The position numbers were made by a program, and so were the translations under genes. A stretch of DNA of 64,000 bases from an uncultured Methylobacterium sp. (GTDB lineage Bacteria; Pseudomonadota; Alphaproteobacteria; Rhizobiales; Beijerinckiaceae), in the NCBI GenBank assembly GCA_963990595.1, contig CAXDNE010000008.1:370-64369 (forward strand), given 5' to 3'. This document shows positions 672 to 15,212 of this stretch, in pieces. Every line of letters begins with the position of its first letter. The first letter of the stretch is position 1. The notes under the pieces are model-generated. The model searched no databases and was not told the DNA's origin. It saw only the letters and a program-made list of their open reading frames with translations.

Positions 672-2909
672 TTAATCGTCGCCGGGCGCGATGGTGGGCG
701 TCGTGCCCGGCGAGGCTGCATCGATCAGCCGGCGCACCTGACGAACAAACCGCTCGGCATCGGATTTGTCGTCCTCAGGGACACGGTCGTTCGCAAGGTG
801 CTCAGCGACGGCATCGGCCAGCGCCGACGCATCGAACACATCCCGGTCCGGTAGCCTATCGAGATCCCGGTAGTTGTAGGGCGGCGCGCTTGAAGTGACG
901 CGTCCCATCTGGGCGAAGGCGAGATCCACCGCGGCGATCGCATCGGGCAAACGCGTCGCTGCCCAGGACGAGGGGCCGGTCGCTCCGGCGAAGGTTGCCC
1001 AGACCTTGAGGGTCAGCCCGATCATCGGTTTGGTTTCGAGCGTACCCGTCTCGGCGGCCCGATTGATGCGTTCGGCCACGGCAGTCCCGAGGAGGTCGAT
1101 TTCGGAACGGGTCAGCAGCGGCGGATCCCTCGGCTCATGGCTGCCCCAGACGACTTGGTGGTCGCGACCGATGACAGCCACGAGCAGCGCCGAGGCATGG
1201 ACCCCCGTCGTTGGCTGGGCAGCGATCTCAAGGAGCGCTTCCAGGCGCTGGGTTTCCGGGATGCGTTCGACGGCGAGGATGATGAAGCTGTCGAGCCGGT
1301 CCGCGTTGCCGACCTTGAAAAAGTCGGAGACCTCGTCGCGCACCCTCATCATGTCTTCCGCGAACTCCAGGACGACGCCGATCAGGCACGGTTCGGCCGC
1401 GGCACCGTCCGCCAGCATCCCGGAGATCTCTTCGAGCAGCGGTGCGGCAAACGATATGTCGTCCGATCGCCGTCGCGCGAACGCATCACGGAACGCGTTC
1501 CGGATGAGCTCGGGGTCCCCCAATCCCTCGCGGATGCGCCGCAACTCGCTGGCGAGGATCTCGTCGAGGGGCGCCGAGAAGCGGAAGTAGGCGTCGAAGC
1601 CGTGAGGCGATCCGATGCGTCGGCCCGAGGTCGCGGGGACCCGCGAGCGATATACGAGGTGGCGGGGTCTCAGGCGCTCTTGGATGGCGGGGAGCATGCG
1701 GCAGAGCAGATCCACGACCTCGTCGCGGCCATTCGGCGATATGCTCTCGGTGATCAATCGTCCGAGTGCCTTCTCCGCCTCCTCGCCCATGAACGTGGCC
1801 TCGCCCGTGACGAAGCTCCGATTGTCCCGGATGAGGGCGTAGGTGCGAGGCTCGAAGTGCCGAAGCATCTCGACCGCCACGAGATCCGGCACGTACGCCT
1901 CACCGGCTACGGCCGGCCAGGCGACCGAGAGGGCGTTGCAGAGGCGGGTCACGTCGCGCGGTGAGATGAGGTAGCGTTTGAACGCGAGGCGAGCCACGGC
2001 GCCCCAGTCCTCCTGCTCCATCGGCGGGTTCGGCCCGACGATCGCCGTCAGCCGGTCGAAGGTCAGTTTGCGTAGGCCGGTAGGCCCGGGGGGCGGGAGG
2101 TCGAGTTCGACCTGCACGATCTTTTCGAGATAGGTCGGCAGGCGGCGCTCTTGGTCGCCTTGCGAGGGGGCCGCGCCGAGGGCCCTGTCGACGATCGTCC
2201 GGTCGTAGACGAGCAGGTGGATGACGTTCGGCAGGTTGCCGAAGGTCTTCACCAGCGTGAGGACTTGGCGCACTTCCTCGGGCTGCAGCCGATCGAGGTC
2301 GTCGATGATGACGAGGATCTTCGTCTCGATCCGGCCGAGTTGCGTCCGCAGATCGCCGATCCTGTCGTCCAGCGAGCGGGCCTGGAGACGATCCGCCCCG
2401 TAGTTGAGGGCGCCGGTCACGACCGATTTGAGGGCCGCGGCTCCCGGCGCCGCCGCCCCACCGCTCAACGCCACAGCGCCGACCGCGACGGCCCCGCCGA
2501 CCATCTCCGCGCCCCCACGGATCAGGCCTTCGAGGAAGCGCCGTGTACCTTCCGGTGCGCCCTCTCCCAACGTCTCGTCGATGACCCGCGCCAATTCGGA
2601 GACGTAGGCGGCTGCGAGGGTTTCCAGTCCTGAGAAGAGCCAAGGATTGAAGGGGCGGATCTTGAGCCGTCGCTCATCGGGAACGTCGGCTTCAAGCTCC
2701 CGGATCGCCTCCAGCGTCAGGTTGATGGCGCTGCTCTTACCCATGCCCCACTGCGCCTGCACGCCGATGACGAAGCCGTCGATCGGTGCGCGCTGGACGA
2801 TGCTTCGTGCCAACGCCTCGGCGAAGGCCTGGTAGTGCAGGCGATCCTCCCCCTTCGTCGAGATCGGCCGGTCTGCGGCGAGCTGAGCCGTGGCAACGTG
2901 ATCGGTCAT
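672..2909 (-). CDS. KAP family P-loop NTPase with long C-terminal extension
   Basis: N-terminal D-x-L (EDRLHYQAFA), Walker A QWGMGKSS, FNPWLFS, hydrophobic insert GGAVAVGAVALSGG, Walker B IIDDLDRL, YLEKIVQ and PRDVTRL: the KAP motif order. Alternative GTG start at 2930. Confidence 0.9.
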   Translation of the reverse strand: MTDHVATAQLAADRPISTKGEDRLHYQAFAEALARSIVQRAPIDGFVIGVQAQWGMGKSSAINLTLEAIRELEADVPDERRLKIRPFNPWLFSGLETLAAAYVSELARVIDETLGEGAPEGTRRFLEGLIRGGAEMVGGAVAVGAVALSGGAAAPGAAALKSVVTGALNYGADRLQARSLDDRIGDLRTQLGRIETKILVIIDDLDRLQPEEVRQVLTLVKTFGNLPNVIHLLVYDRTIVDRALGAAPSQGDQERRLPTYLEKIVQVELDLPPPGPTGLRKLTFDRLTAIVGPNPPMEQEDWGAVARLAFKRYLISPRDVTRLCNALSVAWPAVAGEAYVPDLVAVEMLRHFEPRTYALIRDNRSFVTGEATFMGEEAEKALGRLITESISPNGRDEVVDLLCRMLPAIQERLRPRHLVYRSRVPATSGRRIGSPHGFDAYFRFSAPLDEILASELRRIREGLGDPELIRNAFRDAFARRRSDDISFAAPLLEEISGMLADGAAAEPCLIGVVLEFAEDMMRVRDEVSDFFKVGNADRLDSFIILAVERIPETQRLEALLEIAAQPTTGVHASALLVAVIGRDHQVVWGSHEPRDPPLLTRSEIDLLGTAVAERINRAAETGTLETKPMIGLTLKVWATFAGATGPSSWAATRLPDAIAAVDLAFAQMGRVTSSAPPYNYRDLDRLPDRDVFDASALADAVAEHLANDRVPEDDKSDAERFVRQVRRLIDAASPGTTPTIAPGDD

Positions 2910-3082
2910 GTCGTCTCGCTTCGGCTTCACATTGCGGTCGAAAGGAGTAGGGGAGCAGGCTCTCCGCCGGCCGTGTTAGGGTCGGATCACGACGTCTTGC
3001 GCCCCACGGGGCGATAGGATCGAGGGAGGCCCGGCTCCCATCGACCCTCGCCGGTCGAATGGCCCGATCACGGATCTCGCGA

Positions 3083-3424
3083 TCAGCACCAGTCGACCTT
3101 GCCCCTGCGGAGCCAGAAATGGCTTTTGCAACCAACCTTGCGCCAGACGCTTGGCGCAAGGGATGCGGTGCCATCCCAGTGCTCTTTCAATCTCCAGCCC
3201 GGTCGGTCTCCAGGGATGAGAGAGAGTTTGATGGTCTCACCGCACCCGCAGGGGCAATCGAAGGCGGCGAACCACCGATGGCCGTCCTCGCCCACGACGT
3301 AGACGGTGCGAGGCGTGAGGGCGTCGGGCTCCTCCTCGACGAAGGCGGCGGTGTGTCGCCCGCGGCGGCGGGAGACCCAACGCAGGGCCCCCCGCAGTTT
3401 CATGAGGATGGGCCCCGTCATCAC
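3083..3424 (-). CDS. DUF6527-like small Cys/His protein (typical partner of prokaryotic E1/E2/JAB operons)
   Basis: Motifs CPCGCG, SLAPSVW and GCKSHFW, with terminal WC. The start overlaps the stop of the JAB-E1 gene. Confidence 0.8.
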   Translation of the reverse strand: MMTGPILMKLRGALRWVSRRRGRHTAAFVEEEPDALTPRTVYVVGEDGHRWFAAFDCPCGCGETIKLSLIPGDRPGWRLKEHWDGTASLAPSVWRKVGCKSHFWLRRGKVDWC

Positions 3425-4815
3425 GCGGCCCTCGCGAGCATGTCGAGATGGGGCCGATTGAGGAACGGGACCATGTCGCCCCGACCGACGTACCGGGCCA
3501 GCGCCTCGTCGACGCCCACGTCTGGCAAGTTCTCCCAGTATCCGGCCGTCAGGCTGAACGTCTGTGTCGCGAACCCGCCGTTCGGTTCGAGCCGCGACGG
3601 ATGCAGCCTGAGCAGGAACTCCATGACGGCAAGGCTGGAGAAGAGCCCATTCAACGCCCCCACGGCCGGCCGGTCCTCCGGAACCCCGCGGATGTAGCCG
3701 CGGGCGAGCCTGTCCTCGTAGGCCGCCGGATCCTGCCGGCGGAGGCTCTCGGCCTCCAGCATGCCATCCGTGTAAAGACCGCGCCCACGCAAGCTGGAAC
3801 GACCGGGCTGGAGGTAGTGGACCGAGCCGCAGATCTGCTTGACCCCGCCGTGCCCGTCGGCGTCGAGCATCACGCCGACATCGAAGTAGGCCAAGCCGTA
3901 GAAGGCAGTGAGCCGCCCCAGAAGATCACGGCCTTCGACGCCGTCCATGCAGCCGAAGACGATGTCGCAGGTCGAGACCGACTGCAGAGCTGCGGGGTGG
4001 GAGAGGTCGTGCGGGAACGCCTCCACGCGTGAGCCGAGGCCGAGCCGGTCCACGAAATCGGCGAGCACCTCGACCTTGGGCCGTCCAATATCGGCCCACG
4101 TGGTGTTCACGATACGGTTGAGGTTCTTCTCCTCGACCTTGTCCGGGTCGACGAGCACGATTTGGCCTACACCGAGGCGGGCAACCTGGTCGACGAGGGG
4201 GCCCCCGGTGCCGGAGCAGCCGACGATTCCGACCCGCAGCCCGCGGACGGTCTCGAAGGTCCCGCGTCCGAAGGCTTGGGCGTGCCGCTTGGCGAATTCG
4301 GGGACCTGCTGATCCTCGCTTGTCGGCGGCCTCCAGAGCCGGATGTCGTCGCCGACCAGGCAGACGTGGTGCAGTTCGCCGTGCTTCCCGTCGGCATGAT
4401 GGGCGCGGGCCAGCACGGCGCCGGATGGCACCATGATGGCGCTGAGGTGCGGGGCGCCGTCGTCGACCCAGGCGTGGATGCTGCCGAACAAGGCGTCGTC
4501 GGCCGCGTCATCGACCTCGCTGAACTGGAGGTTCCCGCCGGGGTGGGAGTGGATCTTCGCCACCGCCATCCCACGCCGCGCCGCCTTTTCCAGCAGGGGT
4601 TCAAGGAAGGAGGTCGGCCAGGTCACGCGCCGATCGGTCCGCTGGCAGGCGTCGTGGGGGACCGGCACGATCTCGTGGACGACGAGCTTGGCGCAGCCTG
4701 GCGACGCGGCCCGGCCGCACAGCATCAGGGCGACGGCCTCGCGGCCGTCACCCGGGAACAGATGGGAGTGGATCGCAGCGTGCTGGGCTGCGGTAAGGGC
4801 GAGCGTGACGCGCAT
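3421..4815 (-). CDS. JAB/MPN peptidase fused to ThiF/E1-like adenylating enzyme (464 aa)
   Basis: True start MRVTLAL at 4815 (TGATG overlap with the upstream gene). JAB motif E...HSHPGGNLQFSEVD; E1 motifs VGIVGCSGTGG, DPDKVEEKNLNR, GRPKV and FGCMD. Confidence 0.9.
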   Translation of the reverse strand: MRVTLALTAAQHAAIHSHLFPGDGREAVALMLCGRAASPGCAKLVVHEIVPVPHDACQRTDRRVTWPTSFLEPLLEKAARRGMAVAKIHSHPGGNLQFSEVDDAADDALFGSIHAWVDDGAPHLSAIMVPSGAVLARAHHADGKHGELHHVCLVGDDIRLWRPPTSEDQQVPEFAKRHAQAFGRGTFETVRGLRVGIVGCSGTGGPLVDQVARLGVGQIVLVDPDKVEEKNLNRIVNTTWADIGRPKVEVLADFVDRLGLGSRVEAFPHDLSHPAALQSVSTCDIVFGCMDGVEGRDLLGRLTAFYGLAYFDVGVMLDADGHGGVKQICGSVHYLQPGRSSLRGRGLYTDGMLEAESLRRQDPAAYEDRLARGYIRGVPEDRPAVGALNGLFSSLAVMEFLLRLHPSRLEPNGGFATQTFSLTAGYWENLPDVGVDEALARYVGRGDMVPFLNRPHLDMLARAA

Positions 4816-5510
4816 CAGGCGGCCCCCACTTCCTTGGCGAGGTTGTGCTCGACCACGGCGAGGTGCGTGCCGATGTCGTCGATGTCGGGCCGCCACGGGT
4901 TCAGGCCGGTGCGGTGCCGCGACCAGCCCTGCCAGTGCTTGCCCTCGAAGTTGTCGCCGACGAGCGCCCGGATCTGCGCGCCGTCCGTCCGGGCCAGGGG
5001 CGGGTGGAAGTACCACATGTCGATCTGCGAGGTCGGATACCCCGGCAGGAGCCGCATCATCAGGTCGGTCCGTTCCGGCGCGTAGCCGGCCCGGACGGGG
5101 TAGCCGCGGATGACGACGCGGGGGACGCCCGACTCCTGGACGGTCTCCCAGCGCAGGCCCAAGGCGTCGAGGGTCTCGCGGTCGCCCTCCGGCAGGACGA
5201 AGTCCCGGCGCGGGGGGAGCGCCTGCTCCCCCTCGGTCTGGTCCAGCGGCAGGGTGATGAAGCGCTCCTCGCCCTGGTCGCTGACATGGACCACCTCGTC
5301 GAGGCCGATCGGCTTCATCGTGGCGCCGATCTTCTGGAGGAGCTTGTAGCGCTCCGGGTACTCCTTGCCGGCGATGACGAGGAGGTCGCGGCCGGTCAGG
5401 TCCGGCAGCGCGTTCTCGTACTCCGTCTTGTCGATGCGGAAGCGGTAGACCCGGATCTTGCGGGTGCCGTCCTCGTCGTCGTGGTCGTTGGTGTGGCCGT
5501 TGGTCGTCAT
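4815..5510 (-). CDS. Ubiquitin-like (multi-ubiquitin type) domain fused to prokaryotic E2/UBC family E domain
   Basis: aa ~20-94 look beta-grasp-like (FRID...LTGRDLL...IGLDEVV...ERFIT) and end in QTEG94. The C-terminal part has PGYPTSQIDMWYFHPPL and WQGWSRH, typical of family-E prokaryotic E2. AGGAG RBS upstream. Confidence 0.82.
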   Translation of the reverse strand: MTTNGHTNDHDDEDGTRKIRVYRFRIDKTEYENALPDLTGRDLLVIAGKEYPERYKLLQKIGATMKPIGLDEVVHVSDQGEERFITLPLDQTEGEQALPPRRDFVLPEGDRETLDALGLRWETVQESGVPRVVIRGYPVRAGYAPERTDLMMRLLPGYPTSQIDMWYFHPPLARTDGAQIRALVGDNFEGKHWQGWSRHRTGLNPWRPDIDDIGTHLAVVEHNLAKEVGAA

Positions 5511-5653
5511 GACCGCTCCTTTCGTTCTCTCGTTGGATCCGGTGCTTCCCGCACCGTCGAGAGGTTGATCGAAAGGGACCGGCGCACCCGGAAACGGTCG
5601 CGCTCACTTTTTTTACAGGATCGATCTCGGCCTTCCCGCGGGCTTGCCGAACC

Positions 5654-8600
5654 TCAACGCTCCCTGGACAGCGGGTGCCGCACGAAGGCGCCGCCTGCCG
5701 GCAGACCGGGGCAAGCGAAGAGGTGTGGGCAGCGAAGGCAGCCACGGCCAGGATTGGGAGCGAAGTGGCCGCCGCCGATGTCGGCCATGTGCTGGGCGAC
5801 GGCGGCGACAAGCTCGGCCCGCTTGTCAGCCGCGACCGCCCGGCGGGTCGAGCCAGTCAGGTGGATCGCCTCGACGGTCACGGGCTCGCCGAAAGCCTGT
5901 TCTGCGGCGGCATCGAGGATCGCGTACTCGAATTCCTTTTCCAGAGAGGCCATGGCTCTGCGCGTGGCGATCCGCCTCACGATCAACCGGCCGTCTCGGG
6001 TGCGCACCACGTCGTGCGCCCGGGAGAGAATGTGTCCGCCGCCGGCAGCCAGACGCAAGGCCCTGGGCGCCTGCCGGCCTTCCTCGTCGCGCGTGCCTAC
6101 GAGAAATCTCAACATCTCCTCGGCGATCCGCCTGTATGCGTTGGCGTGGCCGTGGTCGGCCGGCCCGTGCTTTTCCCAGGCACCCTCGAACGCCGCCGCA
6201 AAACCCGCCGGCTCCGCCTGGGCGGCGTCGAAGTTCCGATCGAGCCAATCGATCATCGCCCGGACTGCGTTGTGCATCCGGATGTACGGGTTCTCGTCGC
6301 GGCGGCCGCCGAGGCTGAGGACGTAGGTGTATAGGAAGCGTAATCCGCACTTCCCGTAGGCATCGAGATGCTGGTGGTCGAGCTCGACCGGAACGCTCCA
6401 GGCGACCGGCACCGGCACGGGGGCAGCCGCCATGGGTGGTGCCGGGAGTGGGGGGATCGGACGTGTCGGGCCCAGCGTGGCGGCGATGCGTGCGTTGTAA
6501 GCGGAAGGGTTCCGCCGCCGCGCGCCACCCTTTTGCATCGTGGAGCGGTACAGGCGCAGGCCGTCTCGCGCGCGGGAAAGAAGCACGAAGAACAGACAGG
6601 CTTCCTGCTCGTCGTGGCCTGCCATGCACGCCTGGAGACCGGTCATGCCCACGCTGCCGGCGATGAGGCCGTCCGGCGGTGGGCAATCCGGCGCCTTCGC
6701 GCTACGGGGCAGTCCCGTGGCGATCATGCCCGGGGCATGCACGAGGTCGAATTCGAGCCCCTTGCTTCCATGGATCGTCATCAGCCGGACGGCATCGAGT
6801 TCCAGGGCTGCGTCCGGGAATTGCCGCAGCGAGCGCTCTTCGTTCAGCCGGATCAACCTCCTGATCTGACGAGTGACCTCGAAGGTCGGGAATTGCCCTT
6901 CAATCGGCAGGGACCGAAGGAAGTTGAGGAATTGCCAGACCGCGACGCCGGCCATCCGGTCGCCCAGCGTGGCGGCCCCCCCGATGCGTCTGGCGATCCC
7001 GAGCCTGTCGAGCACCAGGGCGCTCGCGATATTCCAGGGATGGGCGCGGGGCTCGAAGCCAGCGCAGGCTTCTCGGAGCCGCCGCAGGGATTCCTGCCCT
7101 TGCCGGCTCAGGCCGGGGATCTCGTCCGCCCCCTCCAGCCATGCCAGCGGATCGGTGGCCGCATCCCTGAGATGGGCCGCGACCAAGGCAACGTCGCCGA
7201 GCCCCATCCCGACTTCCGGGATCATGGCGACCCGTACCAGCGTCGCGGCGCGAGGGTCGTGGAACAGGGCGAGCAGGCTGAGCAGATCCTTGATCTCGGG
7301 CCGCTCGAAGAGGGGCCCGAGGTAGAGGACGGGGATGTTCCGAGCCGCCAGGCCGCCGGCGAAGGCAGCGAGCCGGTCGTTGGCCGTGCAGAGGACAGCT
7401 TGGTCGCGAAAGGCGATCCCCTCGGCGTTTGCCTCGGCGATTGAAGCGGCGACCAGAGCGATCTCGTCGTCGGGCGTTCCCGCCTCGTGAAGGACCGGTC
7501 GTTCGCCGCACCTCCCTCGATCGGGGGTAAGACGGAGGTCGCCAATGCGCCTAAAGGCCTCGACGCTCGAAGCGAAGGCCGAGAAGGTGTCGATGATCTC
7601 GCCGCGCGAACGATAGTTGACGGTCAGCGCGCCGTCCGTCGCGGTGGGGTAATCTTCCTTGAAAGCCCCCATACTTGCCGAGGTCGCGCCCCGGAAGCGG
7701 TAGATCGACTGGCGGGCATCGCCCACGACCCAGAGACGTTCACCGCCGTCCGCGGCGAGCGCACCGATCAGGCGGACGGTGGCGAAATTCACATCCTGGT
7801 ATTCGTCGACGAGGATGTGACGGTGCCGGAGCGCCAGCGCCTTGGCCACCTCGGGATGGTCCGCCATCAAGCGCACCGGCTTCATGATGAGATCGCCGAA
7901 GTCCAGGGTGTCATTGTCCGCGAGGAGCCGTTCGTAGGCTGCGTAGACCATCGCCTCCTCCGTCGCGCGCTTCGCCCGTAGGCGCGTCGCCTCGTCGGTC
8001 GCGGCACGGCCCATAGCCTCCGCGAGTTCGGCGTAACGAACGTGGTCGACGAGTTCGTCCTTCGCCCGCGAGATGGCAGCGAGGATGTCCGCGAGGTTGT
8101 CCTCGGGATCCCAGAGATCCCGGTAGTGATCCAATGGGAGGGCCGGGATGATCTCCTCAAGCATCGTGATGGCCGTGGCCTTGTCGACGAGGCGCGGGCT
8201 CGGGGGAAGCTTGAGACGGTCATGGAAGCGACGGACGATATCCAGGCCGAAGGCGTGGAAGGTACCGATCCAGACGGAAGCGGCCGCCTCGGGGTGTGAA
8301 AGGGCGAGCCGGTCCATCAGCTCGCCTGCCGCCTTGTTCGAGAATGTCAGGACGAGAATGCCGTTCGGGTCCACGCCCTCGTCGATGAGGCTCGTGACCC
8401 GGCGGATCAGGGTCCTGGTCTTACCAGTGCCGGGGCCGGCCTGGAGGAGATAGGGGCTGCCGCGGTGCGCGACGGCGACGTCCTGGCTTGGATCGGGTCG
8501 AAGCGCCCCGCCGGCGGGAGCGGCGACCGCCTCAGGAACCGGCGGCAGCAGGAGGGCATCGAGCAGTTGTTGCGTGACGACGTCCTCCCGGATCCCGAGC

Positions 8601-9082
8601 CGGGCGGCGATATCCGCTACGCTCATGCCCGCGGCATGGTGCTCGCGCACGACGAAGCGTGGCAACACGAGCTCGCGGGCGAAGAGATCCGCTTGGACTT
8701 CCCGCCGTTCGCCTCGCCCGTAATCGACGAGTCTCTCGACGGCGGAACCGCTCTCCGCCGAACGGCTGGGATCAGTGTGGTAGGTGAGAACCGGCACCGC
8801 GCACCCGTGCATCGCCACGTGGCCGAGTTCGTGCCCGATCAGGAGGGCGTCTTCTCCAGCCGATCCCGTCTCGCCGTAGAGGATACCTTTCGTCTCGGGG
8901 TCGATGATCGCCTTGCACCCGCGCAGCGAGACGTCGCCCGCCTGTGCAGGTTGATGCCAGAGGTCGTAGGTCGGGAGGGCCCGCACGACGACGTCGTAAG
9001 GCTGCCAAGGGTCGCCGCCGCTGGCGACGACCTCCCGGTGGATACGTTCAGCCCTCTTTCTTGCGGCCTCAATCGGATCCAC
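5654..9082 (-). CDS. ImmA/IrrE-type metallopeptidase fused to UvrD/PcrA-like SF1 helicase and a C-terminal PD-(D/E)XK-like (AddB/Cas4-like) domain
   Basis: N-terminal GHELGH and EVQADLFARELVLP; helicase motifs AGPGTGKT, DEYQD, GDARQSIYRFRGA, LMTIHGSKGLEF and VLLSRAR; C-terminal YGKC...CLRCPHLFAC four-Cys pattern. Confidence 0.88.
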   Translation of the reverse strand: MDPIEAARKRAERIHREVVASGGDPWQPYDVVVRALPTYDLWHQPAQAGDVSLRGCKAIIDPETKGILYGETGSAGEDALLIGHELGHVAMHGCAVPVLTYHTDPSRSAESGSAVERLVDYGRGERREVQADLFARELVLPRFVVREHHAAGMSVADIAARLGIREDVVTQQLLDALLLPPVPEAVAAPAGGALRPDPSQDVAVAHRGSPYLLQAGPGTGKTRTLIRRVTSLIDEGVDPNGILVLTFSNKAAGELMDRLALSHPEAAASVWIGTFHAFGLDIVRRFHDRLKLPPSPRLVDKATAITMLEEIIPALPLDHYRDLWDPEDNLADILAAISRAKDELVDHVRYAELAEAMGRAATDEATRLRAKRATEEAMVYAAYERLLADNDTLDFGDLIMKPVRLMADHPEVAKALALRHRHILVDEYQDVNFATVRLIGALAADGGERLWVVGDARQSIYRFRGATSASMGAFKEDYPTATDGALTVNYRSRGEIIDTFSAFASSVEAFRRIGDLRLTPDRGRCGERPVLHEAGTPDDEIALVAASIAEANAEGIAFRDQAVLCTANDRLAAFAGGLAARNIPVLYLGPLFERPEIKDLLSLLALFHDPRAATLVRVAMIPEVGMGLGDVALVAAHLRDAATDPLAWLEGADEIPGLSRQGQESLRRLREACAGFEPRAHPWNIASALVLDRLGIARRIGGAATLGDRMAGVAVWQFLNFLRSLPIEGQFPTFEVTRQIRRLIRLNEERSLRQFPDAALELDAVRLMTIHGSKGLEFDLVHAPGMIATGLPRSAKAPDCPPPDGLIAGSVGMTGLQACMAGHDEQEACLFFVLLSRARDGLRLYRSTMQKGGARRRNPSAYNARIAATLGPTRPIPPLPAPPMAAAPVPVPVAWSVPVELDHQHLDAYGKCGLRFLYTYVLSLGGRRDENPYIRMHNAVRAMIDWLDRNFDAAQAEPAGFAAAFEGAWEKHGPADHGHANAYRRIAEEMLRFLVGTRDEEGRQAPRALRLAAGGGHILSRAHDVVRTRDGRLIVRRIATRRAMASLEKEFEYAILDAAAEQAFGEPVTVEAIHLTGSTRRAVAADKRAELVAAVAQHMADIGGGHFAPNPGRGCLRCPHLFACPGLPAGGAFVRHPLSRER

Positions 9083-9701
9083 GTTCGGCCTCTGCCATAT
9101 CGAGCAGCCGTTTCTGCTGCTCGGCGGTCAGGCCCGACGTAGCAACCGCTTCCTCGAAGGTCTGCTTTTTCCCCGCCGCGGGTTTGCCGTCCGACTTCGC
9201 CATCATACCGAGCGGCATCGAGGCGGACCGCGCAAGACTTGCATGCACCGCACTTACTTCATGCCCAAGCTCGTCGGCAATTATCTTGGATAGTTTTCTA
9301 GGAAACGCGGATGCCTCGATAAGACCATCTTTTATTTTAATCAAAAAAAGCGGACTTAAATCAAGACGTGCAGCTAATCGTGGAAAGGCTGCTCCGCTAA
9401 CCCCCGAAAAAACGTTAGCCATTCTGGCTGCGTTAGGTACGGGTGTCGTCGCGGGCTCGGACTTTATCCCGGCCTGGAAACGGGCCCATGCGGAAGACAC
9501 CGTCTTCCTCGTCGACGCATCAGCAGCCGGCAATGTGCGAGCGGGTTCCAGGACCATCTCGACCGCAAGTTCCGTCAGCTCCCGACGCAACTCAGGGTGT
9601 TCCTTCGCGTAGGTTTCGAGGCGTCTTGGGGTCGGCTCCCCTTCCGTTGCAAACTCCATCAGTACGTCGCGCATGCCGCGCATGGTGCTGGTCGTTGTCA
9701 T
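9069..9701 (-). CDS. Hypothetical protein, putative anti-sigma / HTH-containing partner of the sigma factor and IrrE peptidase
   Basis: 210-aa ORF overlapping both neighbours (ATGA with the sigma gene, 14 nt with the helicase gene). Helical composition with an HTH-like C-terminal half (LAARLDLSPLFLIKIKDG). Function is inferred from position only. Confidence 0.6.
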   Translation of the reverse strand: MTTTSTMRGMRDVLMEFATEGEPTPRRLETYAKEHPELRRELTELAVEMVLEPARTLPAADASTRKTVSSAWARFQAGIKSEPATTPVPNAARMANVFSGVSGAAFPRLAARLDLSPLFLIKIKDGLIEASAFPRKLSKIIADELGHEVSAVHASLARSASMPLGMMAKSDGKPAAGKKQTFEEAVATSGLTAEQQKRLLDMAEAERGSD

Positions 9702-10471
9702 CGTCCCTCTCCGAGTTCACGACGCAGCTTTTCGTACGCCTTCTGAAGGCGATACCGTATCGCCCGGTCGGAGACGTCGCAAAGCTTCGCAATGTTTTCC
9801 GCGTCGTCGCCCTCGATGGGGTGCCCCTTGAGGACGAGCGTGACAGCCACCCTTTCGTGGTCTGGCAAACGGTCGATCGCGCGAAGAAGCTCGTTCCGGA
9901 AACGTTCTCTTTCCTGTTCGGCGCCCTCCGCCTGGAAAAATTCCCGCAGCTGCTTGGCTAGGACTGGTAGGGGCTGCCCTTCCTCGTCGTGCATGTCCTC
10001 GACGTGATCCTCCTTGGCGGACATCCGTCCGGAGGCGCGCAGCACGTCGATGCGCAAGGCCGCGAGCGCGCTGGCGAAACGCACCTCGAAGTAGTCGAGA
10101 CGCTCGCCCGATTGGTTGCGGTCCTCCACCAGGAGATCCACGAACCTATCGGCCACCTCCTGACGCAACTCCTCCACGTCATAGAGCGAGCTTGGCCGAA
10201 CAGACCCCTTCAACGATCGGACGACGCGGTCGAGGAGGATCTCGAATAACTGCGCGAAGCGGTCGTCGGAATTGTCTAGACGGGTCGAGCGGATGAGGTG
10301 GAGCAGGCATTCGGGCTCGATGAAGCCCGGTGCTCGCGGATCATCGAGGCGTGCCTCGCGGATGACGGTGTCGAGATCGAGCCCCGTTGCACGATCTATG
10401 GCGGCGTCGACAGAAGCTGTCCTGGCATAGAGTTCGCCCGTTTTTTTACGTTTCGTGAGGGGAGGCGGCAT
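9698..10471 (-). CDS. Sigma-70 / ECF-like sigma factor
   Basis: Region 2-like (EELRQEVADRFVDLL...FASALAALRIDVLR) and a clear region 4 HTH (AIDRLPDHERVAVTL...NIAKLCDVSDRAIRYRLQKAYEKLR). Confidence 0.75.
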   Translation of the reverse strand: MPPPLTKRKKTGELYARTASVDAAIDRATGLDLDTVIREARLDDPRAPGFIEPECLLHLIRSTRLDNSDDRFAQLFEILLDRVVRSLKGSVRPSSLYDVEELRQEVADRFVDLLVEDRNQSGERLDYFEVRFASALAALRIDVLRASGRMSAKEDHVEDMHDEEGQPLPVLAKQLREFFQAEGAEQERERFRNELLRAIDRLPDHERVAVTLVLKGHPIEGDDAENIAKLCDVSDRAIRYRLQKAYEKLRRELGEGR

Positions 10472-10594
10472 GCCGAATCCGTGTGGCGTTCCAGCGACGC
10501 TACCTCAAGATGATTTGTCGCCAAGTTCAAGGTGCGGGCCCCGTCCTTCCGTCCAATCTGAGCCTCAACGATTCTTCTGTTCGGCACCCTGTCC

Positions 10595-11409
10595 CTAACG
10601 GGCCGGAGATAGGTTGACCGCGCGCCCGCCTTCGAACCCGCTGGCCTCCTCGACGTGCCCGCGCGGGTTGCAGGCGACCCGGGTGGGCCCGACGCGGTAA
10701 TCGGCGGCGTGGTGGAGGTGGCCGTGGATCCAGAGGTCCGGCCCCCTCGCGTGGACCAGGTCGCGCAGGTCCGAGGCGTAGCACCAGCGCAGGTTGACGT
10801 GCGGATCTGGCAGGCTCTCGGGGAGCGGCGCGTGGTGGGTCACGACGACCGTGGGGCCGGGATGCGGCTCCGATAGGACGCGGTCTAGGAACGCGCGGGT
10901 GCGCCGGTGCATGGCGAGCACCTCGCCGGGCTCGATCCGGTGCCGCGAGCTCGGGCCGGTGCGGATCCGGCGGTAGTCGACCATGCCGAACCGCCCTTGC
11001 GCTGACCGCGTAGCCTGCGTCAGGGTCACGGATCCGAGCCGGAAATCGGTCCAGAGCGTGCCGCCGGCGAACCGGGTTCCGCCGATGGTGACGGCGTCGT
11101 CCATCAGCAGGTGAATGCCGTGACGGGCGGCGAGATCGCGGCCCCGGGCGACTTGGTCTTGGATCGTGTAGCGGTCCTCGCCCCGATCCCACAGAAGTCG
11201 TGGTTGCCGGGCACGTAGACGACCGGCACCCGGGGCAGGCGCTCGGCGAGCCAGCCGAGGGCGCGGGTCCGGGGCGTGTGTACGTCGCCGGCGACGATGG
11301 CCGCGTCGAACCCGCCCGTCGGCGCGTGCGCGGCTGGGTCCCAGGTGTTCTCCGGCTATTCCTGGTGCAGGTCGGAGAAGATCCTGAGGCGCTGAGGGCG
11401 GCCGGTCAC
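10595..11409 (-). pseudogene. Calcineurin-like metallophosphoesterase, inactivated
   Basis: GTG start at 11409 gives RIFSDLHQE* (in-frame TAG), then AGDVH...YVPGNHDF, a frameshift near 11195, and it continues GTLWTD...VVVTHHAP...WIHGHLH...NPRG. Confidence 0.85.
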
Positions 11410-11960
11410 GGGTCGCCTCCGTTTCGGCCCGCATTCTCGGCGAGGCGGGTGAGGATCTCGTCGATGGCGACGGGGCGGAAATCGAAGCAGTCCACGCCGA
11501 CGTTTGTGCTGGCCGCGGTGCCGGGCAGCCGGCCGTGGGAATGGCCGTAGAGGTGGATGTCGCCCCGGTGCTGGCCGGGCCAGACGCGGTGGGCGTAGTG
11601 CGAGCACCACACGCCCAGGGTCGTGCCGTCGGGGCGCGGGACGACGACCCGGGCGACGTCGACGACGCCGTCCCAGGGCAGGCGGGCCGCGATGCGGTCG
11701 TGGTTGCCGCGGACGAGGAAGCGTCGGCGGCCGTTGAGCCGGCCGAAGATCGCGCGTGCTCTGTCCTTCGGGCAGCGGTGACAGAAGTCGCCGAGGTGCC
11801 AGACGGTGTCGCCGGGGCGGACGGCCGCGTTCCAGCGGGCGATCAGCGCCTCGTCGTGCTCCTCGATGGTGGCGAAGGGGCGGTTCAGGCCGAACCGTGC
11901 GCCGAGTGCGGCCCGGTGCCCGAAATGACTGTCGGCGGTAAGCAGAATTCGGGATGGCAT
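11406..11960 (-). CDS. Metallophosphoesterase (phage-type small phosphoesterase)
   Basis: MPSRILLTADSHFGH, HDEALIARWN, WHLGDF, RGNHD, HLYGHSHG and NVGVD motifs. Confidence 0.88.
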   Translation of the reverse strand: MPSRILLTADSHFGHRAALGARFGLNRPFATIEEHDEALIARWNAAVRPGDTVWHLGDFCHRCPKDRARAIFGRLNGRRRFLVRGNHDRIAARLPWDGVVDVARVVVPRPDGTTLGVWCSHYAHRVWPGQHRGDIHLYGHSHGRLPGTAASTNVGVDCFDFRPVAIDEILTRLAENAGRNGGDP

Positions 11961-12002
11961 GGGAGCCTCGCGCGGGTCGCGGAGGCTCGACGCAGGGGGC
12001 CG

Positions 12003-12090
12003 CCATGGTGCCCGCCATGGTGGCAATAGACGGCCTCCCATGACGCTGTCCATGGTGGCGTATCGCTGTCGCCCATAAGGGTCTCCATGG
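12003..12090. repeat. CCATGG palindrome cluster (copy 1; 4 perfect plus near variants)
   Basis: CCATGG at 12003, 12015, 12050 and 12085; CCATGA at 12038. Confidence 0.8.
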
Positions 12091-12482: not shown

Positions 12483-14411
12483 ATGGCCTTCGTCCCCCAT
12501 TCTAGGAACATGCATGGCGCGCGTTACCGCCGGGCGGCGTTCACGCCCGGGCGCCGGGGGGACCTGGCGGCTGCGCTGGCGGATCCGGCGGCGCTCGCCG
12601 CCATCGCGCCCGGCCTTCCCCGTCCCGCATCGTGGCTTCTGGACGGACACGTCGCGCGTATGAGGGGGACGTACGCCCGGGACATGGCGCTATTCGAGTG
12701 TTTGGTCGAATGCGCCCGCGACGCCGACCCTTCTCTGGGCCGCCAGGACCTCGTCGAGATCCCGGTGCGCTGCGCTCTCACCGTTCTGTCGGCGGGCGGA
12801 CGCTCCGCCGCGCCGCGGGAGCTTGCACAGGCCCTGTCGCGGCTTTTCGACGTCCCGGCGCCCCGGCTGACGATCGACGGCCACTTCACCTTTCGCCTGC
12901 CCACGTGGACGCGGCACGTCATGCCGAAGGCCATCGGAGGCCGGTACGCACACTTGGACCTCGCCGCCTTGGCGAGGTTCAGAAAGAGGGCGAGCGCCCT
13001 CCTTTACCGGCAGATTCTCGGGCGTTTGGCCCAGCTTAAGGCGAGATACGCGCCGGATGCCGAACCTGTGCGCGTGACGTTCGATCCGCTCGAACTCTCC
13101 GACCTTCTTGGGCAGCCAGTCCCGCACATCCCCCAACTCAGGACGGGTTACCTTCAGCCGGCCCTCGACGAGATCCGCGAGCAGGTGAAGGATTTCGCCA
13201 TCGACGCTGTTGAGGAGACGAGATCCTCCGGGGCGGTGTCATCCTTTACGTTCGTGGTTCGACCGCTCCCCCCCAGGAACCTTCGCGCCGTCCGGGCCCG
13301 CGTTCTCGACGACGGCGATTTCGATGCCCTGTCGGCGCTCCTCGACGTCCCCGCCTATCGCGTTTCCGTGGCGGCGATGATCCGCGTCGGATCTGTCCTA
13401 CCGTCCAAAGTCCTCCGGCCGAAGGGGAAGCCGGCCCCCTCGCTCGTGAGCGAGGTTCTGTATCTCTACGAATGCTGGCTGGCTGCCCTGGACGAGGCCC
13501 TATCGGCGCGGCGGCTCTCCCCCGGCGTCGAGACGCGCCGATACCGGGGTGAGCGTCTGTTGCGGGCGATCGATGCGGAGACGCCTGACCAAGCCTTCTA
13601 TGGCTTTGTCCTAGAGGAGTCGGAGAGCCCCGACCTCACCGCGATGCTGCGTGATGACTACTTCATCCGTCGGGAGGCACAGCGCGTTCGCCGGGGTCGT
13701 GTCAGGGAGCATAAGGTCAATGCCGCCCGCGCGACCCGCGCGGAACTCCGGGCAGCGCGCGCCGAGGGGACCGCCCCGGCGGCGAAGCCCCGAAAGGCCG
13801 TAGCCCCGGCCGAGCCCGTCCAGGCCGTCCCGCCCGTGCCGACCGCGGAACCCTGGCGCGCGGAGCATGCGTCGGCCCTCCAATCCGATCAGGCCAAGTC
13901 GGAGGCCAAGGCGCTCTATGCCCTTTGGCAACTCGCGCGAGATCTGCCATTCGCCCACGTCGGGGATACATGCGCGTTGGTTCTGCGCGATTTCGAGACG
14001 CGGTTCCCGCTCCTGGCTCGCCTCGATACGGAGCGAGGGGGGCCCTATCGCCAAAACCTCAAATACCTGAAGCCGCTCAAACGCACGCCGTGGCTAAACT
14101 CAGACTCTGCGACCGAGTACGTAATTTGGCTGGCCATTGCGAGTTTAATCGGCATCGAGAATGGCGTGACCGACGATTGGGCCGCCAAAGTCCTCGCCGA
14201 TCGCGCCCACTGCAAGACGGTCATCCTCCGTGACAAGGAGGCCTACGCCAAGGCGCAGGAGCGAAACCGGGGACGCTACGTGCGCGGGCAACGATCGAGC
14301 TACGAGGAGGAGAAGCGGCTCAACGAGTCGACCCCAATCTTCCTCCCGCCAGCGGAGATGGATGAGCTGATTGCCTTCAACGAACGCATGCGCGAAGTAA
14401 GAGAGGATTAA
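12483..14411 (+). CDS. Plasmid replication initiator, Rep_3 (winged-helix) family, with long C-terminal extension
   Basis: Rep_3-like stretch YAHLDLAALARFRKRASALLYRQIL...FDPLELSDLLG...LRTGYLQPALDEIRE...VSSFTF, followed by ~380 aa with no recognisable domain. Confidence 0.75.
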   Translation: MAFVPHSRNMHGARYRRAAFTPGRRGDLAAALADPAALAAIAPGLPRPASWLLDGHVARMRGTYARDMALFECLVECARDADPSLGRQDLVEIPVRCALTVLSAGGRSAAPRELAQALSRLFDVPAPRLTIDGHFTFRLPTWTRHVMPKAIGGRYAHLDLAALARFRKRASALLYRQILGRLAQLKARYAPDAEPVRVTFDPLELSDLLGQPVPHIPQLRTGYLQPALDEIREQVKDFAIDAVEETRSSGAVSSFTFVVRPLPPRNLRAVRARVLDDGDFDALSALLDVPAYRVSVAAMIRVGSVLPSKVLRPKGKPAPSLVSEVLYLYECWLAALDEALSARRLSPGVETRRYRGERLLRAIDAETPDQAFYGFVLEESESPDLTAMLRDDYFIRREAQRVRRGRVREHKVNAARATRAELRAARAEGTAPAAKPRKAVAPAEPVQAVPPVPTAEPWRAEHASALQSDQAKSEAKALYALWQLARDLPFAHVGDTCALVLRDFETRFPLLARLDTERGGPYRQNLKYLKPLKRTPWLNSDSATEYVIWLAIASLIGIENGVTDDWAAKVLADRAHCKTVILRDKEAYAKAQERNRGRYVRGQRSSYEEEKRLNESTPIFLPPAEMDELIAFNERMREVRED

Positions 14412-14783: not shown

Positions 14784-15212
14784 ATGCAGGCCCATACTGT
14801 CACGATCGGGCTGCCCACCCCCGTCCCCATCCTCGCCAAGGCAGTGCGTGCCGGCTTCCCAAGCCCGGCCGACGACTTCATCGAGGACGAGATCGACCTT
14901 CAGCGGCTGCTGATCGCAAACCGCCCGGCGACCTTCCTGGTGCGGGTGGCCGGCGACAGCATGATGCTCGCCAAGCTGTTCGACGGCGATATCGCGGTGG
15001 TCGACCGCTCGCTCAAGCCTCGCAATGGCGACGTGGTGGTGGTCGACGTCGACGGGGAGCGGTCGTTCAAAGTCTGGCGCCGCCAGGGCCCCCGGGTGAC
15101 CCTGCATTTCGCCAACCCCCGCTTTCCCGAGTTCCAGCTGTCCCCGGACGCGGTCATCGAGGTCTGGGGCGTCGTGTCCGGCTCGGTGAACCCGAGGCGA
15201 CGGAGCGAATGA
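14784..15212 (+). CDS. umuD: UmuD-like S24 peptidase (SOS mutagenesis)
   Basis: VRAGFPSPADD, TFLVRVAGDSM and DGERSFK (Ser/Lys dyad); ATGA overlap with umuC. Confidence 0.92.
   Translation: MQAHTVTIGLPTPVPILAKAVRAGFPSPADDFIEDEIDLQRLLIANRPATFLVRVAGDSMMLAKLFDGDIAVVDRSLKPRNGDVVVVDVDGERSFKVWRRQGPRVTLHFANPRFPEFQLSPDAVIEVWGVVSGSVNPRRRSE

What the first reader, a model, noticed from the sequence alone, without database searches (positions are those of the whole stretch)
5654..9082. IrrE metallopeptidase fused to a UvrD helicase and a catalytically degenerate Fe-S nuclease domain: a candidate DNA-sensing protease
Seen: intact HExxH (GHELGH) and all SF1 helicase motifs. The C-terminal domain keeps four Cys (GKC...CLRCPHLFAC, AddB/Cas4-like Fe-S staple), but where PD-(D/E)xK motifs belong it reads SRAHDVV...IVRRIAT, with no D/E-x-K. 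Established: IrrE/PprI and CapP are activated by ssDNA and cleave an HTH repressor. Inference: the helicase/dead-nuclease moiety loads on or generates ssDNA (phage replication forks, DNA ends) and switches on the attached peptidase in cis.
Basis: partly seen in the sequence, partly recalled or inferred. Interest (0 to 1): 0.85.

Follow-up and report, generated by a model that had tools for sequence, protein, structure and literature searches.

The report
Protease-helicase sensor controlling a ubiquitin-like defence operon
The gene encodes a real fusion of a CapP/IrrE-type zinc protease, a UvrD-type helicase and a dead iron-sulfur nuclease. With a dedicated sigma factor and a small partner protein, it forms a widespread cassette, not described in the papers searched, that most likely switches on an adjacent bacterial ubiquitin-like anti-phage operon when abnormal DNA is sensed.

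Summary
ORF 5654-9082 (-) encodes 1142 aa in three parts:
- an M78 peptidase with HExxH plus Glu invariant in all homologs;
- a complete SF1 UvrD/PcrA-type helicase;
- an AdnA/AddB-like four-Cys nuclease fold whose motif-III catalytic Asp is Arg or Lys, never Asp/Glu, in 89 homologs.

The gene is third in a conserved cassette: ECF-type sigma factor (9698-10471), a ~200-aa protein with no family assignment, here called p210 (9069-9701), then the fusion.

In 65 of 72 species-level loci the cassette lies directly upstream of, and in the same direction as, a ubiquitin-like conjugation operon. This is type I Bub in the window (3083-5510) and Bil in others.

A two-block promoter-like motif, TT(T/A)CCGG-N15/16-CGAT(T/C), follows the fusion gene's stop codon in 66 of 90 loci. 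A second copy lies inside the sigma gene, held in place by synonymous-codon choice and co-varying with the first.

Best reading: a sigma-factor switch for the defence operon, with the fusion protein as DNA sensor and protease and p210 as its probable substrate. The cassette and the promoter motif are shown. The proteolytic mechanism is inferred. No paper searched describes it. I classify it as a new variant of the ImmA/IrrE/CapP regulator kind.

The parts
9698..10471 (-). ECF-type sigma factor gene (257 aa), first gene of the cassette. It has a conserved ~50-aa N-terminal extension.
   Evidence: NCBIfam TIGR02937 sigma70-ECF, residues 71-253 on model 2-165/165, 44.6 bits against a cut-off of 42.9. 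Pfam Sigma70_r4_2 in 27 of 29 orthologs. PDB profile hits to ECF sigma factors. Present upstream in at least 68 of 73 loci.
9875..9902 (-). Promoter-like motif P1, TTTCCGG-N16-CGATC, embedded in the 3' part of the sigma ORF about 175 nt before the p210 start codon.
   Evidence: One of only 2 matches in the 64-kb window, with 0.39 expected. Synonymous sites are fixed across loci: preceding wobble base T in 53/55, Phe always TTC or Tyr always TAC, Arg CGG in 52/55, Ala GCG in 52, Ile mostly ATT. The -35 third base and the -10 last base co-vary with the intergenic copy.
9069..9701 (-). p210, a 210-aa protein with no Pfam, NCBIfam, PADLOC or PHROG family. It is the putative substrate or regulator. 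Its stop overlaps the fusion gene's start by 14 nt, and its start overlaps the sigma gene's stop.
   Evidence: AF2 model at pLDDT 72: N-terminal helices 4-79, disordered 80-100, four helices 105-157, disordered 158-180 with invariant Pro174 in K-x-x-x-K-P, C-terminal helices 182-208. Fold and profile hits to XRE/Cro/immunity repressors are only weak. There are 1453 cluster representatives at E<=1e-3, all about 195-225 aa.
5654..9082 (-). The fusion protein (1142 aa): M78 peptidase, UvrD-type helicase and inactive Fe-S nuclease fold.
   Evidence: AF2 model pLDDT 87.5, pTM 0.87. Foldseek matches UvrD/PcrA/Rep (E about 1e-32) and AddA, AdnA/B and RecB.
8543..9082 (-). Residues 1-180: M78 zinc-peptidase domain (HELGH codons at 8819-8833; Glu128) followed by three short helices (142-178) that look like an HTH-type linker.
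   Evidence: Pfam PF06114. Invariant H84, E85, H88, E128. Best PDB profile hit is CapP 7t5t_A, weak at E 0.04, aligned across HExxH and E..Q.DLFA..LLP. Secondary structure. CapP domain layout.
6443..8500 (-). Residues 195-880: SF1A UvrD/PcrA/Rep-type helicase core with all ATPase and translocase motifs.
   Evidence: Pfam UvrD-helicase 2e-59 and UvrD_C. PDB PcrA 3e-79. Motif residues invariant. Scores are far below the NCBIfam equivalog cut-offs for PcrA, UvrD, Rep, AddA and RecB.
5693..6400 (-). Residues 895-1130: AdnA/AddB-like PD-(D/E)xK fold with four Cys (C912, C1115, C1118, C1124). Arg1037 stands where the catalytic Asp belongs.
   Evidence: Pfam PDDEXK_1. Alignment to AdnA D934. Residue counts over 89 homologs. 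Alignment A8.
5567..5594 (-). Promoter-like motif P2, TTTCCGG-N16-CGATC, 60 nt after the fusion gene's stop codon and 57 nt before the bubAB ATG. An A-tract lies at 5608-5614.
   Evidence: Found after the stop codon in 66 of 90 loci. Across all loci there are 149 hits on the operon strand against 19 on the other. The spacer is 16 nt in 45 and 15 nt in 12 of 57 distinct sites, and the upstream A-tract is 75-84% A.
4815..5510 (-). bubAB: ubiquitin-like domain fused to an E2-like domain. It is the presumed regulated operon, not part of the sensor cassette.
   Evidence: Pfam Multi_ubiq 2e-9 and Prok-E2_E 2e-32. GC3 0.98.
3421..4815 (-). bubCD: JAB peptidase fused to an E1 (ThiF) adenylyltransferase.
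   Evidence: Pfam Prok-JAB and ThiF 3.5e-28. The start ATG overlaps the bubAB stop codon.
3083..3424 (-). bubE: DUF6527 serine protease of Bub operons.
   Evidence: Pfam PF20137, 3e-24. Its role comes from bioRxiv 10.1101/2024.11.21.623953.

Best explanation
What it is. The ORF is the sensor and protease of a three-gene transcriptional switch. The order is an ECF-type sigma factor, then a ~200-aa partner protein (p210), then the M78 peptidase / UvrD helicase / dead Fe-S nuclease fusion. The switch governs the ubiquitin-like conjugation defence operon immediately downstream: type I Bub here, Bil in other lineages.

Shown:
- the domain make-up of the fusion protein;
- family-wide conservation of the peptidase and ATPase sites;
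- family-wide replacement of the nuclease's catalytic Asp by Arg or Lys;
- the fixed gene order;
- the link to Bub and Bil operons;
- two copies of a two-block motif with fixed spacing, TT(T/A)CCGG-N15/16-CGAT(T/C). One lies in front of the Ubl operon. The other lies in front of p210 plus the fusion gene, or upstream of the sigma gene in Bil-linked loci.

Inferred:
- The motifs are promoters read by the cassette's own sigma factor.
- In the resting cell p210 keeps the system off, either by holding the sigma factor (anti-sigma role) or by binding DNA through its XRE-like domain.
- The helicase and dead-nuclease module replaces the ssDNA-binding GAF domain of CapP/IrrE. It loads on ssDNA or DNA ends produced by phage replication or DNA damage, and holds but cannot cut the strand.
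- That engagement, perhaps ATP-dependent, activates the N-terminal peptidase.
- The peptidase cuts p210, plausibly in or next to the conserved K-x-x-x-K-P / Phe182 segment ahead of the C-terminal helices.
- The freed sigma factor then transcribes the Ubl operon. Through the internal promoter it also transcribes more p210 and sensor, which resets the switch.
For: Architecture and active sites.

Cassette conservation. Among 73 species-level loci, sigma is present in at least 68 and p210 in at least 67. Downstream, 49 loci carry Bub, 16 carry Bil and 7 carry something else, out of 72. Bil identity is from PADLOC, BilA-D at E 1e-52 to 1e-165. Bub identity is from Pfam and the literature.

Promoter motif. 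It is present in 66 of 90 loci just after the stop codon, with a strand bias of 149 to 19. The spacer is fixed at 15-16 nt with an upstream A-tract. The window has only 2 matches, both in this operon and on its strand, against 0.39 expected. The internal copy is maintained by synonymous-codon choice. The pairs of -35 third base at the internal and intergenic sites are T/T in 25 loci, A/A in 23 and mixed in 2. No sigma-70-type promoter is found in 2900-11000.

Sigma identity: TIGR02937 above its cut-off.

Precedent. CapP is an M78 peptidase plus HTH-like linker plus GAF. It is activated by ssDNA and cuts the XRE repressor CapH to induce defence operons. [quoted passage not shown]

p210. It overlaps the fusion gene, which suggests translational coupling. 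It shows weak XRE-like signals.
Against: - No experiment or structure of a complex supports cleavage of p210, sigma binding by p210, or DNA-dependent activation.
- The XRE-like fold of p210 rests only on non-significant hits (best E 0.33 to 1.6). Its N-terminal domain matched no anti-sigma family.
- The motif could be an operator rather than a promoter. No transcription start is available, because the RNA-seq contigs were uninformative.
- Part of the co-variation between the two motif copies could reflect shared ancestry of two large clades.
- The CapP similarity of the peptidase domain is weak at sequence level (E 0.04).
- Seven of 72 loci lack a recognisable Ubl operon downstream.
Confidence: 0.55

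Rival explanations
1. Pro-sigma processing. The cassette is still a switch for the Ubl operon, but the peptidase's substrate is the conserved ~50-aa N-terminal extension of the sigma factor, removed as in Bacillus pro-sigma-E/K. p210 would then be an adaptor or DNA-binding co-regulator rather than the substrate.
For: All orthologs of the sigma factor carry a conserved N-terminal segment ahead of the region matched by the ECF model. R17 is invariant, L5 and G12 nearly so, and the TIGR02937 match starts only at residue 71.
Against: Known M78 regulators (ImmA, IrrE, CapP) cut XRE-type HTH partners encoded next to them. p210, not sigma, is the gene overlapping the peptidase gene, and it carries the XRE-like hints.
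Confidence: 0.15
2. Working partner, not regulator. The fusion protein acts within the Ubl pathway itself. It might be recruited to phage DNA as a platform or target for Ubl conjugation, or it might process a pathway component, with the sigma factor merely co-expressed.
For: It is tightly linked to two different Ubl systems, Bub and Bil. The biological targets of Bub are unknown, and no Bub operon has yet protected E. coli when expressed alone.
Against: Bil and Bub operons function or occur widely without this protein. In other loci the same position is held by known regulators: CapW, CapH+CapP or CapK+CapS. The fusion gene lies upstream of the conserved promoter motif that precedes the Ubl genes, not within that operon.
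Confidence: 0.15
3. Independent helicase-based defence or repair enzyme. It would be a stand-alone Nhi/Gabija/AddA-like helicase-nuclease, or a PcrA/UvrD paralog as databases name it, that merely sits in the same defence island.
For: Database names are 'DNA helicase-2/PcrA' and 'UvrD-helicase domain-containing protein'. PADLOC gives GajB and RTasHel helicase hits. The locus lies in a mobile defence island with a PifA-like gene and transposases.
Against: - The nuclease catalytic Asp is absent family-wide.
- Scores are far below the equivalog cut-offs for PcrA, UvrD, Rep, AddA and RecB.
- No GajA or second helicase-nuclease subunit is nearby.
- An accidental neighbour would not keep the same gene order, gene overlaps and shared motif across phyla.
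Confidence: 0.05

Closest known systems
CapP/CapH (with IrrE/DdrO and ImmA/ImmR): M78 peptidase plus XRE repressor switches
   Same: - M78 zinc peptidase with HExxH plus a downstream Glu ligand, followed by a short HTH-like linker.
- Encoded next to a small helical partner protein.
- Placed next to defence operons, including Bub and Bil.
- CapP is switched on by ssDNA and induces the neighbouring operon by cutting its partner.
   Different: - The GAF sensor domain is replaced by a ~950-aa UvrD helicase plus dead Fe-S nuclease.
- The partner has no recognisable HTH_3 domain and carries an extra N-terminal domain.
- The cassette includes its own ECF sigma factor and sigma-type promoter motifs.
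- Its genes run in the same direction as the regulated operon, whereas capH/capP are usually divergent.
AdnAB / AddAB / RecBCD helicase-nucleases
   Same: A UvrD-like SF1 motor is followed in the same chain by a PD-(D/E)xK fold. As in AddB and AdnA/B, the fold is stapled by one N-terminal and three C-terminal Cys.
   Different: - A single chain with no partner subunit nearby.
- The catalytic Asp (AdnA D934 equivalent) is Arg or Lys in all homologs.
- An N-terminal peptidase is added.
- It is not a housekeeping gene: distribution is patchy, on mobile islands and on 92 plasmid records.
ECF sigma / anti-sigma pairs released by regulated proteolysis
   Same: A sigma70-ECF family protein is encoded immediately before a small partner gene, with a protease in the same operon. 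The two-block promoter-like motif includes a copy that would feed back on the cassette.
   Different: - The partner is cytoplasmic and matches no anti-sigma family.
- The protease is an M78 enzyme fused to a helicase, not a site-1/site-2 membrane protease.
- The -35 block, TT(T/A)CCGG, is unlike the usual GGAAC.
- The 2021 ECF classification paper's main text mentions no helicase, peptidase or ubiquitin context.
CapK/CapS and CapW/BrxR: other DNA-damage-responsive controllers of Bub operons
   Same: They occupy the same position upstream of Bub operons and have the same presumed job. Both are activated by ssDNA.
   Different: The proteins are unrelated: a GHKL kinase with a STAS-wHTH repressor, and a WYL-HTH repressor. 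None has a helicase, a sigma factor or a protease.

Membership tests
Peptidase M78 (ImmA/IrrE family) | HExxH zinc site plus a downstream Glu ligand; match to the family model | tested here: met
   PF06114 at 35.1 bits against a cut-off of 22. H84, E85, H88 and E128 are invariant in 82-83 homologs. They align to CapP H96/E97/H100/E129.
CapP (CapH+CapP regulator) | Three-domain layout: peptidase, HTH-like linker, C-terminal GAF domain | tested here: not met
   Peptidase and three linker helices are present at residues 1-178. From residue 198 the chain is a UvrD helicase, with no GAF domain.
CapP (CapH+CapP regulator) | Adjacent XRE-family HTH partner (CapH) that is the cleavage substrate | tested here: inconclusive
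   The adjacent p210 gene is conserved. Its XRE-like signals are only sub-threshold. Cleavage is not testable with these tools.
CapP (CapH+CapP regulator) | Peptidase activated by single-stranded DNA | not testable with these tools
   This needs purified protein. It is inferred only from the attached helicase and nuclease-fold module.
SF1A UvrD/PcrA/Rep helicases | Walker A, DExQD, motifs III-VI; 1A/1B/2A/2B fold | tested here: met
   PF00580 at 2e-59. PcrA at 3e-79. Foldseek to UvrD at 8e-33. Motif residues are invariant. It is not an ortholog of PcrA, UvrD or Rep: 262 bits against a cut-off of 911.
AddAB/AdnAB-type helicase-nuclease | Catalytic PD-(D/E)xK triad in the C-terminal domain | tested here: not met
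   The motif-III Asp (AdnA D934 equivalent) is R in 73 and K in 6 homologs, never D or E. In the window's clade the motif-II Asp is His and the motif-III Lys is Ala.
AddAB/AdnAB-type helicase-nuclease | Four-Cys Fe-S staple in the nuclease domain | tested here: met
   C912, C1115, C1118 and C1124 are conserved in 84-87 of 90 sequences. Actual cluster binding was not tested.
AddAB/AdnAB-type helicase-nuclease | Second subunit encoded alongside | tested here: not met
   No second helicase-nuclease gene lies in the window neighbourhood or in the related loci.
ECF sigma factors (for the 9698-10471 product) | Sigma-2 and sigma-4 domains matching the ECF model | tested here: met
   TIGR02937, residues 71-253 on model 2-165/165, 44.6 bits against a cut-off of 42.9. 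Sigma70_r4_2 in 27 of 29 orthologs and Sigma70_ECF in 3 of 29. RNA polymerase binding was not tested.
Type I Bub operon (for 3083-5510) | BubAB (Ubl-E2 fusion), BubCD (JAB-E1 fusion) and BubE (DUF6527), in that order | tested here: met
   Multi_ubiq plus Prok-E2_E; Prok-JAB plus ThiF; DUF6527.
Gabija (GajB) and DRT helicase components | Partner GajA nuclease or reverse transcriptase in the operon | tested here: not met
   The PADLOC hits cover only the UvrD core. No GajA or reverse-transcriptase gene is nearby.

The most novel reading that the evidence does not exclude
This would be a fourth, undescribed class of controller of bacterial immune operons. An ATP-driven SF1 helicase carrying a deliberately inactivated Fe-S nuclease would serve as the DNA sensor for a CapP-like protease. 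The output would go through a private ECF sigma factor and its own promoters rather than through simple derepression. The cassette governs both Bil and Bub ubiquitin-like immunity across many phyla and on plasmids.
Probability: 0.45. Interest if true: 0.8.

Novelty: new variant of a known kind. Interest (0 to 1): 0.72.

Why it matters
Bub and Bil are recently recognised bacterial relatives of ubiquitination. For Bub, neither the trigger nor the biological role is known, and no Bub operon has yet protected E. coli when expressed alone. A dedicated sigma factor and sensor may explain why heterologous expression fails, and it gives a handle for switching these operons on.

Mechanistically, it would show that the M78 protease switch (ImmA, IrrE, CapP) can take a motor protein as its sensor. 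That would allow discrimination of DNA structures such as ends, forks or ssDNA tracts rather than mere ssDNA presence.

It would also give a clear case of a nuclease fold kept only for DNA binding.

The cassette is common. p210 has 1453 cluster representatives at 50% identity. The fusion protein is found in Alpha-, Beta- and Gammaproteobacteria, Planctomycetes, Acidobacteria, Myxococcus and others. It also occurs on 92 plasmid records, including Acinetobacter and Klebsiella plasmids. Its components are still annotated as 'hypothetical' or 'PcrA/UvrD'.

Tried and rejected
- RNA-seq support for the predicted transcript starts. Four true RNA-seq runs gave only sparse single-contig coverage and no start information.
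- Assigning p210 to a family. There was no Pfam, NCBIfam, PADLOC or PHROG match. Two PDB profile searches found nothing. Foldseek against PDB and viral models gave no match below E 0.3. Only a recurring but non-significant XRE/Cro theme emerged.
- Checking whether the authors of the Bub and Cap papers counted this protein as CapP. The Bub preprint's tables are not held. The EMBO J dataset lists some Methylobacterium type I Bub operons with no regulator, and others with CapP/CapH in a different gene order, but the IMG ids could not be resolved.
- Literature searches for the fusion or the sigma cassette found nothing. They covered the Bub, Bil, CapH/CapP and CapK/CapS papers, the 2006 Aravind-lab survey and the 2021 ECF classification.
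- A sigma-70 promoter scan of 2900-11000 found none.
- Rejected: annotation as PcrA/UvrD/AddA, because scores fall far below the equivalog cut-offs.
- Rejected: an active nuclease with catalytic residues elsewhere. The alignment to AdnA places Arg exactly at the catalytic Asp, and no alternative conserved acidic pair appears in the domain. E930 is variable. H937 is conserved but is not a substitute for the Asp.

Full report
**1. The observation**

ORF 5654-9082 on the minus strand is a 1142-codon reading frame with a GTG start. Its codon-position GC bias is that of a real gene in this 67% GC genome.

Pfam places four domains above their curated cut-offs: Peptidase_M78 at 59-173, UvrD-helicase at 198-479, UvrD_C, and PDDEXK_1 at 903-1125.

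More than 120 proteins of about 1140 aa share this architecture. The nearest named ones, at 90% identity, come from Methylobacterium. The rest, at 45-50% identity, come from Nitrosomonas, Paraburkholderia, Xanthomonas, Aquitalea, Duganella and others.

Two sets of alignments were used: 18 and 59 of these proteins, and 89 homologs taken from one genome per species. The following are invariant:
- the peptidase residues H84, E85, H88 and E128;
- the helicase motifs: Walker A G216-T222, DEYQD 426-430, VGDxxQSIYxFRG, NYRS, HxSKGLEF and SRA;
- the four cysteines C912, C1115, C1118 and C1124.

An AlphaFold2 model built on the 59-sequence alignment is confident (pLDDT 87.5, pTM 0.87). It matches UvrD, PcrA and Rep (E about 1e-32), and the helicase-nuclease chains AddA, AdnA/B and RecB.

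**2. The nuclease fold is dead, in the whole family**

A profile of the C-terminal domain finds the AdnA nuclease domain (E 9e-5). The family's 'vvvrRvrTG' lies on AdnA 'LVVVDLKTG'. That Asp is D934, the residue replaced in the deposited AdnA(D934A) nuclease-dead complexes.

At this position the family has Arg in 73 sequences and Lys in 6, and never Asp or Glu. The following Lys position is Arg or Lys in most homologs but Ala in the window's clade. The motif-II Asp is kept in 67 sequences but is His in the window's clade.

It also generalises: selection has kept the fold and the Cys staple while removing metal-ion catalysis.

**3. The peptidase end resembles CapP without its sensor**

The best solved relative of the N-terminal 195 residues is CapP (7t5t). 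The match is weak (E 0.04) but aligns across HExxH and the E..Q.DLFA..LLP motif.

[quoted passage not shown] CapP is inactive until it binds ssDNA, and it then cuts the XRE repressor CapH.

In the model here, the peptidase fold (residues 1-140) is followed by three short helices (142-178), a disordered linker (186-192) and then the helicase. The helicase and dead-nuclease module therefore stands where the GAF domain would be.

The same paper states that how IrrE is activated is unknown.

**4. The gene is part of a conserved cassette next to ubiquitin-like defence operons**

In the window the minus-strand order is:
- a sigma-like gene, 9698-10471;
- a 210-aa gene, 9069-9701, whose two ends overlap its neighbours;
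- the fusion gene;
- a 143-bp gap;
- Multi_ubiq plus Prok-E2_E, 4815-5510;
- Prok-JAB plus ThiF, 3421-4815;
- DUF6527, 3083-3424.

The last three genes are a type I Bub operon (BubAB, BubCD, BubE) as defined by the Corbett laboratory.

The same order recurs in Nitrosomonas, Xanthomonas and Methylobacterium contigs, on a Klebsiella plasmid, and in 80 loci from a one-genome-per-species collection.

Counting species-level loci with enough flank:
- the sigma gene is present upstream in at least 68 of 73, and the small gene in at least 67 of 73;
- downstream, 49 of 72 carry Bub genes, 16 carry a Bil operon and 7 carry something else.

Bil identity is supported by PADLOC models (BilA-D at E 1e-52 to 1e-165).

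The published regulators of Bub operons are CapW/BrxR, CapH+CapP and CapK+CapS. Those papers do not mention a helicase, an M78 fusion or a sigma factor.

**5. A dedicated sigma factor and its likely promoters**

The 257-aa protein passes NCBI's ECF sigma superfamily model over residues 71-253 (44.6 bits against a cut-off of 42.9). Profiles of its orthologs hit ECF sigma factors in the PDB and Pfam region 4 in 27 of 29 members.

The DNA just after the fusion gene's stop codon, lined up across distant loci, shows a two-block motif, TT(T/A)CCGG-N15/16-CGAT(T/C):
- it is preceded by an A-tract;
- it occurs there in 66 of 90 loci;
- hits across all loci number 149 on the operon strand against 19 on the other;
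- the spacer is 16 nt in 45 and 15 nt in 12 of 57 distinct sites.

In the window it lies at 5567-5594, 57 nt before the bubAB ATG.

The window holds only one other match, at 9875-9902. That match lies on the same strand, inside the sigma gene and about 175 nt before the small gene (0.39 matches expected by chance).

This internal copy is conserved in Bub-linked loci. Bil-linked loci instead carry a copy upstream of the sigma gene.

The internal copy encodes F/Y-R-x6-A-I at the start of sigma region 4, and its nucleotides are more constrained than the peptide requires:
- the wobble base of the preceding codon is T in 53 of 55 loci, whatever amino acid that codon encodes;
- Phe is always TTC and Tyr always TAC;
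- Arg is CGG in 52 of 55, Ala is GCG in 52, and Ile is ATT in 43, even in GC-rich genomes.

The third base of the -35 block agrees between the internal and intergenic copies in 48 of 50 loci (25 T/T, 23 A/A). The Methylobacterium clade ends the -10 block in C at both sites.

Fixed spacing, asymmetric blocks, position ahead of the genes and co-variation are what a sigma-dependent promoter pair looks like. No sigma-70-type promoter is detected in the region.

That the cassette's own sigma factor reads these sites is an inference.

**6. The small protein, p210**

It has no family in Pfam, NCBIfam, PADLOC or PHROGs. It is nevertheless abundant: 1453 cluster representatives at E<=1e-3, all about 195-225 aa.

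Its model (pLDDT 72) has the following parts:
- an N-terminal helical domain, residues 4-79;
- a disordered stretch;
- a four-helix domain, residues 105-157;
- a disordered segment with an invariant Pro in K-x-x-x-K-P (P174);
- two C-terminal helices beginning at a conserved Phe.

Fold searches give no significant match. The top of both lists is, however, populated by lambda-repressor-like domains (cyanase N-domain, ClgR) and by phage immunity repressors, Cro and HTH_XRE proteins. A few orthologs give sub-threshold HTH_31, HTH_3 or Xre-like hits.

This is weak evidence for the kind of partner that ImmA, IrrE and CapP cleave. CapH is cut at Phe82/Arg83, at the start of its C-terminal dimerisation helices. 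By analogy, the segment around K169-F182 is the place to look.

**7. Mechanism proposed, with its status**

Shown: the architecture, the active and inactive sites, the cassette, the link to Bub and Bil, and the motif pair.

Inferred: p210 keeps the sigma factor or the promoters silent. The helicase and dead nuclease engage ssDNA or DNA ends from phage replication or damage. This activates the peptidase, which cuts p210. The sigma factor then drives the Ubl operon and, through the internal promoter, drives p210 and the sensor.

Rivals are pro-sigma processing of the conserved N-terminal extension, a direct role of the fusion protein within the Ubl pathway, and an unrelated stand-alone helicase. 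The last is contradicted by the conserved order, the gene overlaps and the shared motif across phyla.

**8. Comparison and novelty**

The protein is a member of the M78 family and of the SF1A helicases.

It fails the defining tests for CapP (no GAF domain). It also fails those for AddAB/AdnAB-type enzymes (no catalytic Asp, no partner subunit).

It works most like CapP/CapH, with the sensor swapped for a motor protein and the output routed through a private sigma factor.

Nothing describing this was found in the searched libraries. That is absence of evidence within that library, not proof of novelty.

I classify it as a new variant of a known kind and score its interest at 0.72.

Noticed in passing
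window 672-2930 (-): A 752-aa KAP-family P-loop NTPase lies directly downstream of bubE. It matches the PADLOC PifA model over its whole length (E 1.5e-86), so it is a second likely anti-phage gene in the same island.
   Followed up: partly
window 10595-11434 and 11406-12053 (-); also L006 7130-8478: Two calcineurin-like phosphoesterase (Metallophos) ORFs lie just upstream of the sigma gene on the same strand. They are conserved in the Methylobacterium loci but not in other lineages. Their relation to the cassette is unknown.
   Followed up: no
L001 3175-6560; L003 3189-6574; also L012, L014, L016, L018, L019, L034, L066: In Beta- and Gammaproteobacterial loci and one Opitutaceae locus, an AAA ATPase plus Peptidase_S8 (subtilase) gene pair sits immediately upstream of the sigma gene, in the same direction. 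It may be a further associated module.
   Followed up: partly
window 19227-20765 (+); L006 18124-19791; L090 12956-14386: Mu/Tn7-type transposition genes flank the cassette in several genomes: rve plus Mu-transposase C-domain in the window, TniQ in Methylobacterium and TnsD on a Klebsiella plasmid. The fusion protein is also on 92 plasmid records, 45 of them Acinetobacter. The cassette with its Ubl operon appears to travel on mobile elements.
   Followed up: partly
L020 18148 and 18299 (+), next to a HipA_C ORF at 16474-18321: Two further copies of the promoter-like motif lie downstream of the Bil operon, near the end of a HipA-like kinase gene. The sigma factor's regulon may extend beyond the Ubl operon in some genomes.
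   Followed up: no
L043 about 13396-13420; also L024 and L038, same position: In some loci of the TTACCGG type, the -35 block sits inside a near-perfect inverted repeat (CTGACCGG-AATTA-CCGGTCAG in L043). This could be an operator for a dimeric DNA-binding protein overlapping the promoter. It is not universal.
   Followed up: no
L084 16532-16957: An HNH endonuclease ORF directly follows the BilD-like E1 gene in this Gemmatimonadaceae locus.
   Followed up: no
window 15209-16336 (+) and 12483-14411 (+): A Y-family (DinB/ImpB-type) DNA polymerase gene and a 642-aa ORF with no Pfam match lie between the cassette and the transposase.
   Followed up: no
L090 9480-11840 (Klebsiella plasmid); L024, L026, L027 and similar loci: Many loci carry a Bub variant whose E1-like protein is about 390-415 aa and matches the window's BubCD only weakly (E 1e-5 to 1e-10), apparently without the JAB domain. 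The cassette therefore serves more than one Bub subtype.
   Followed up: partly
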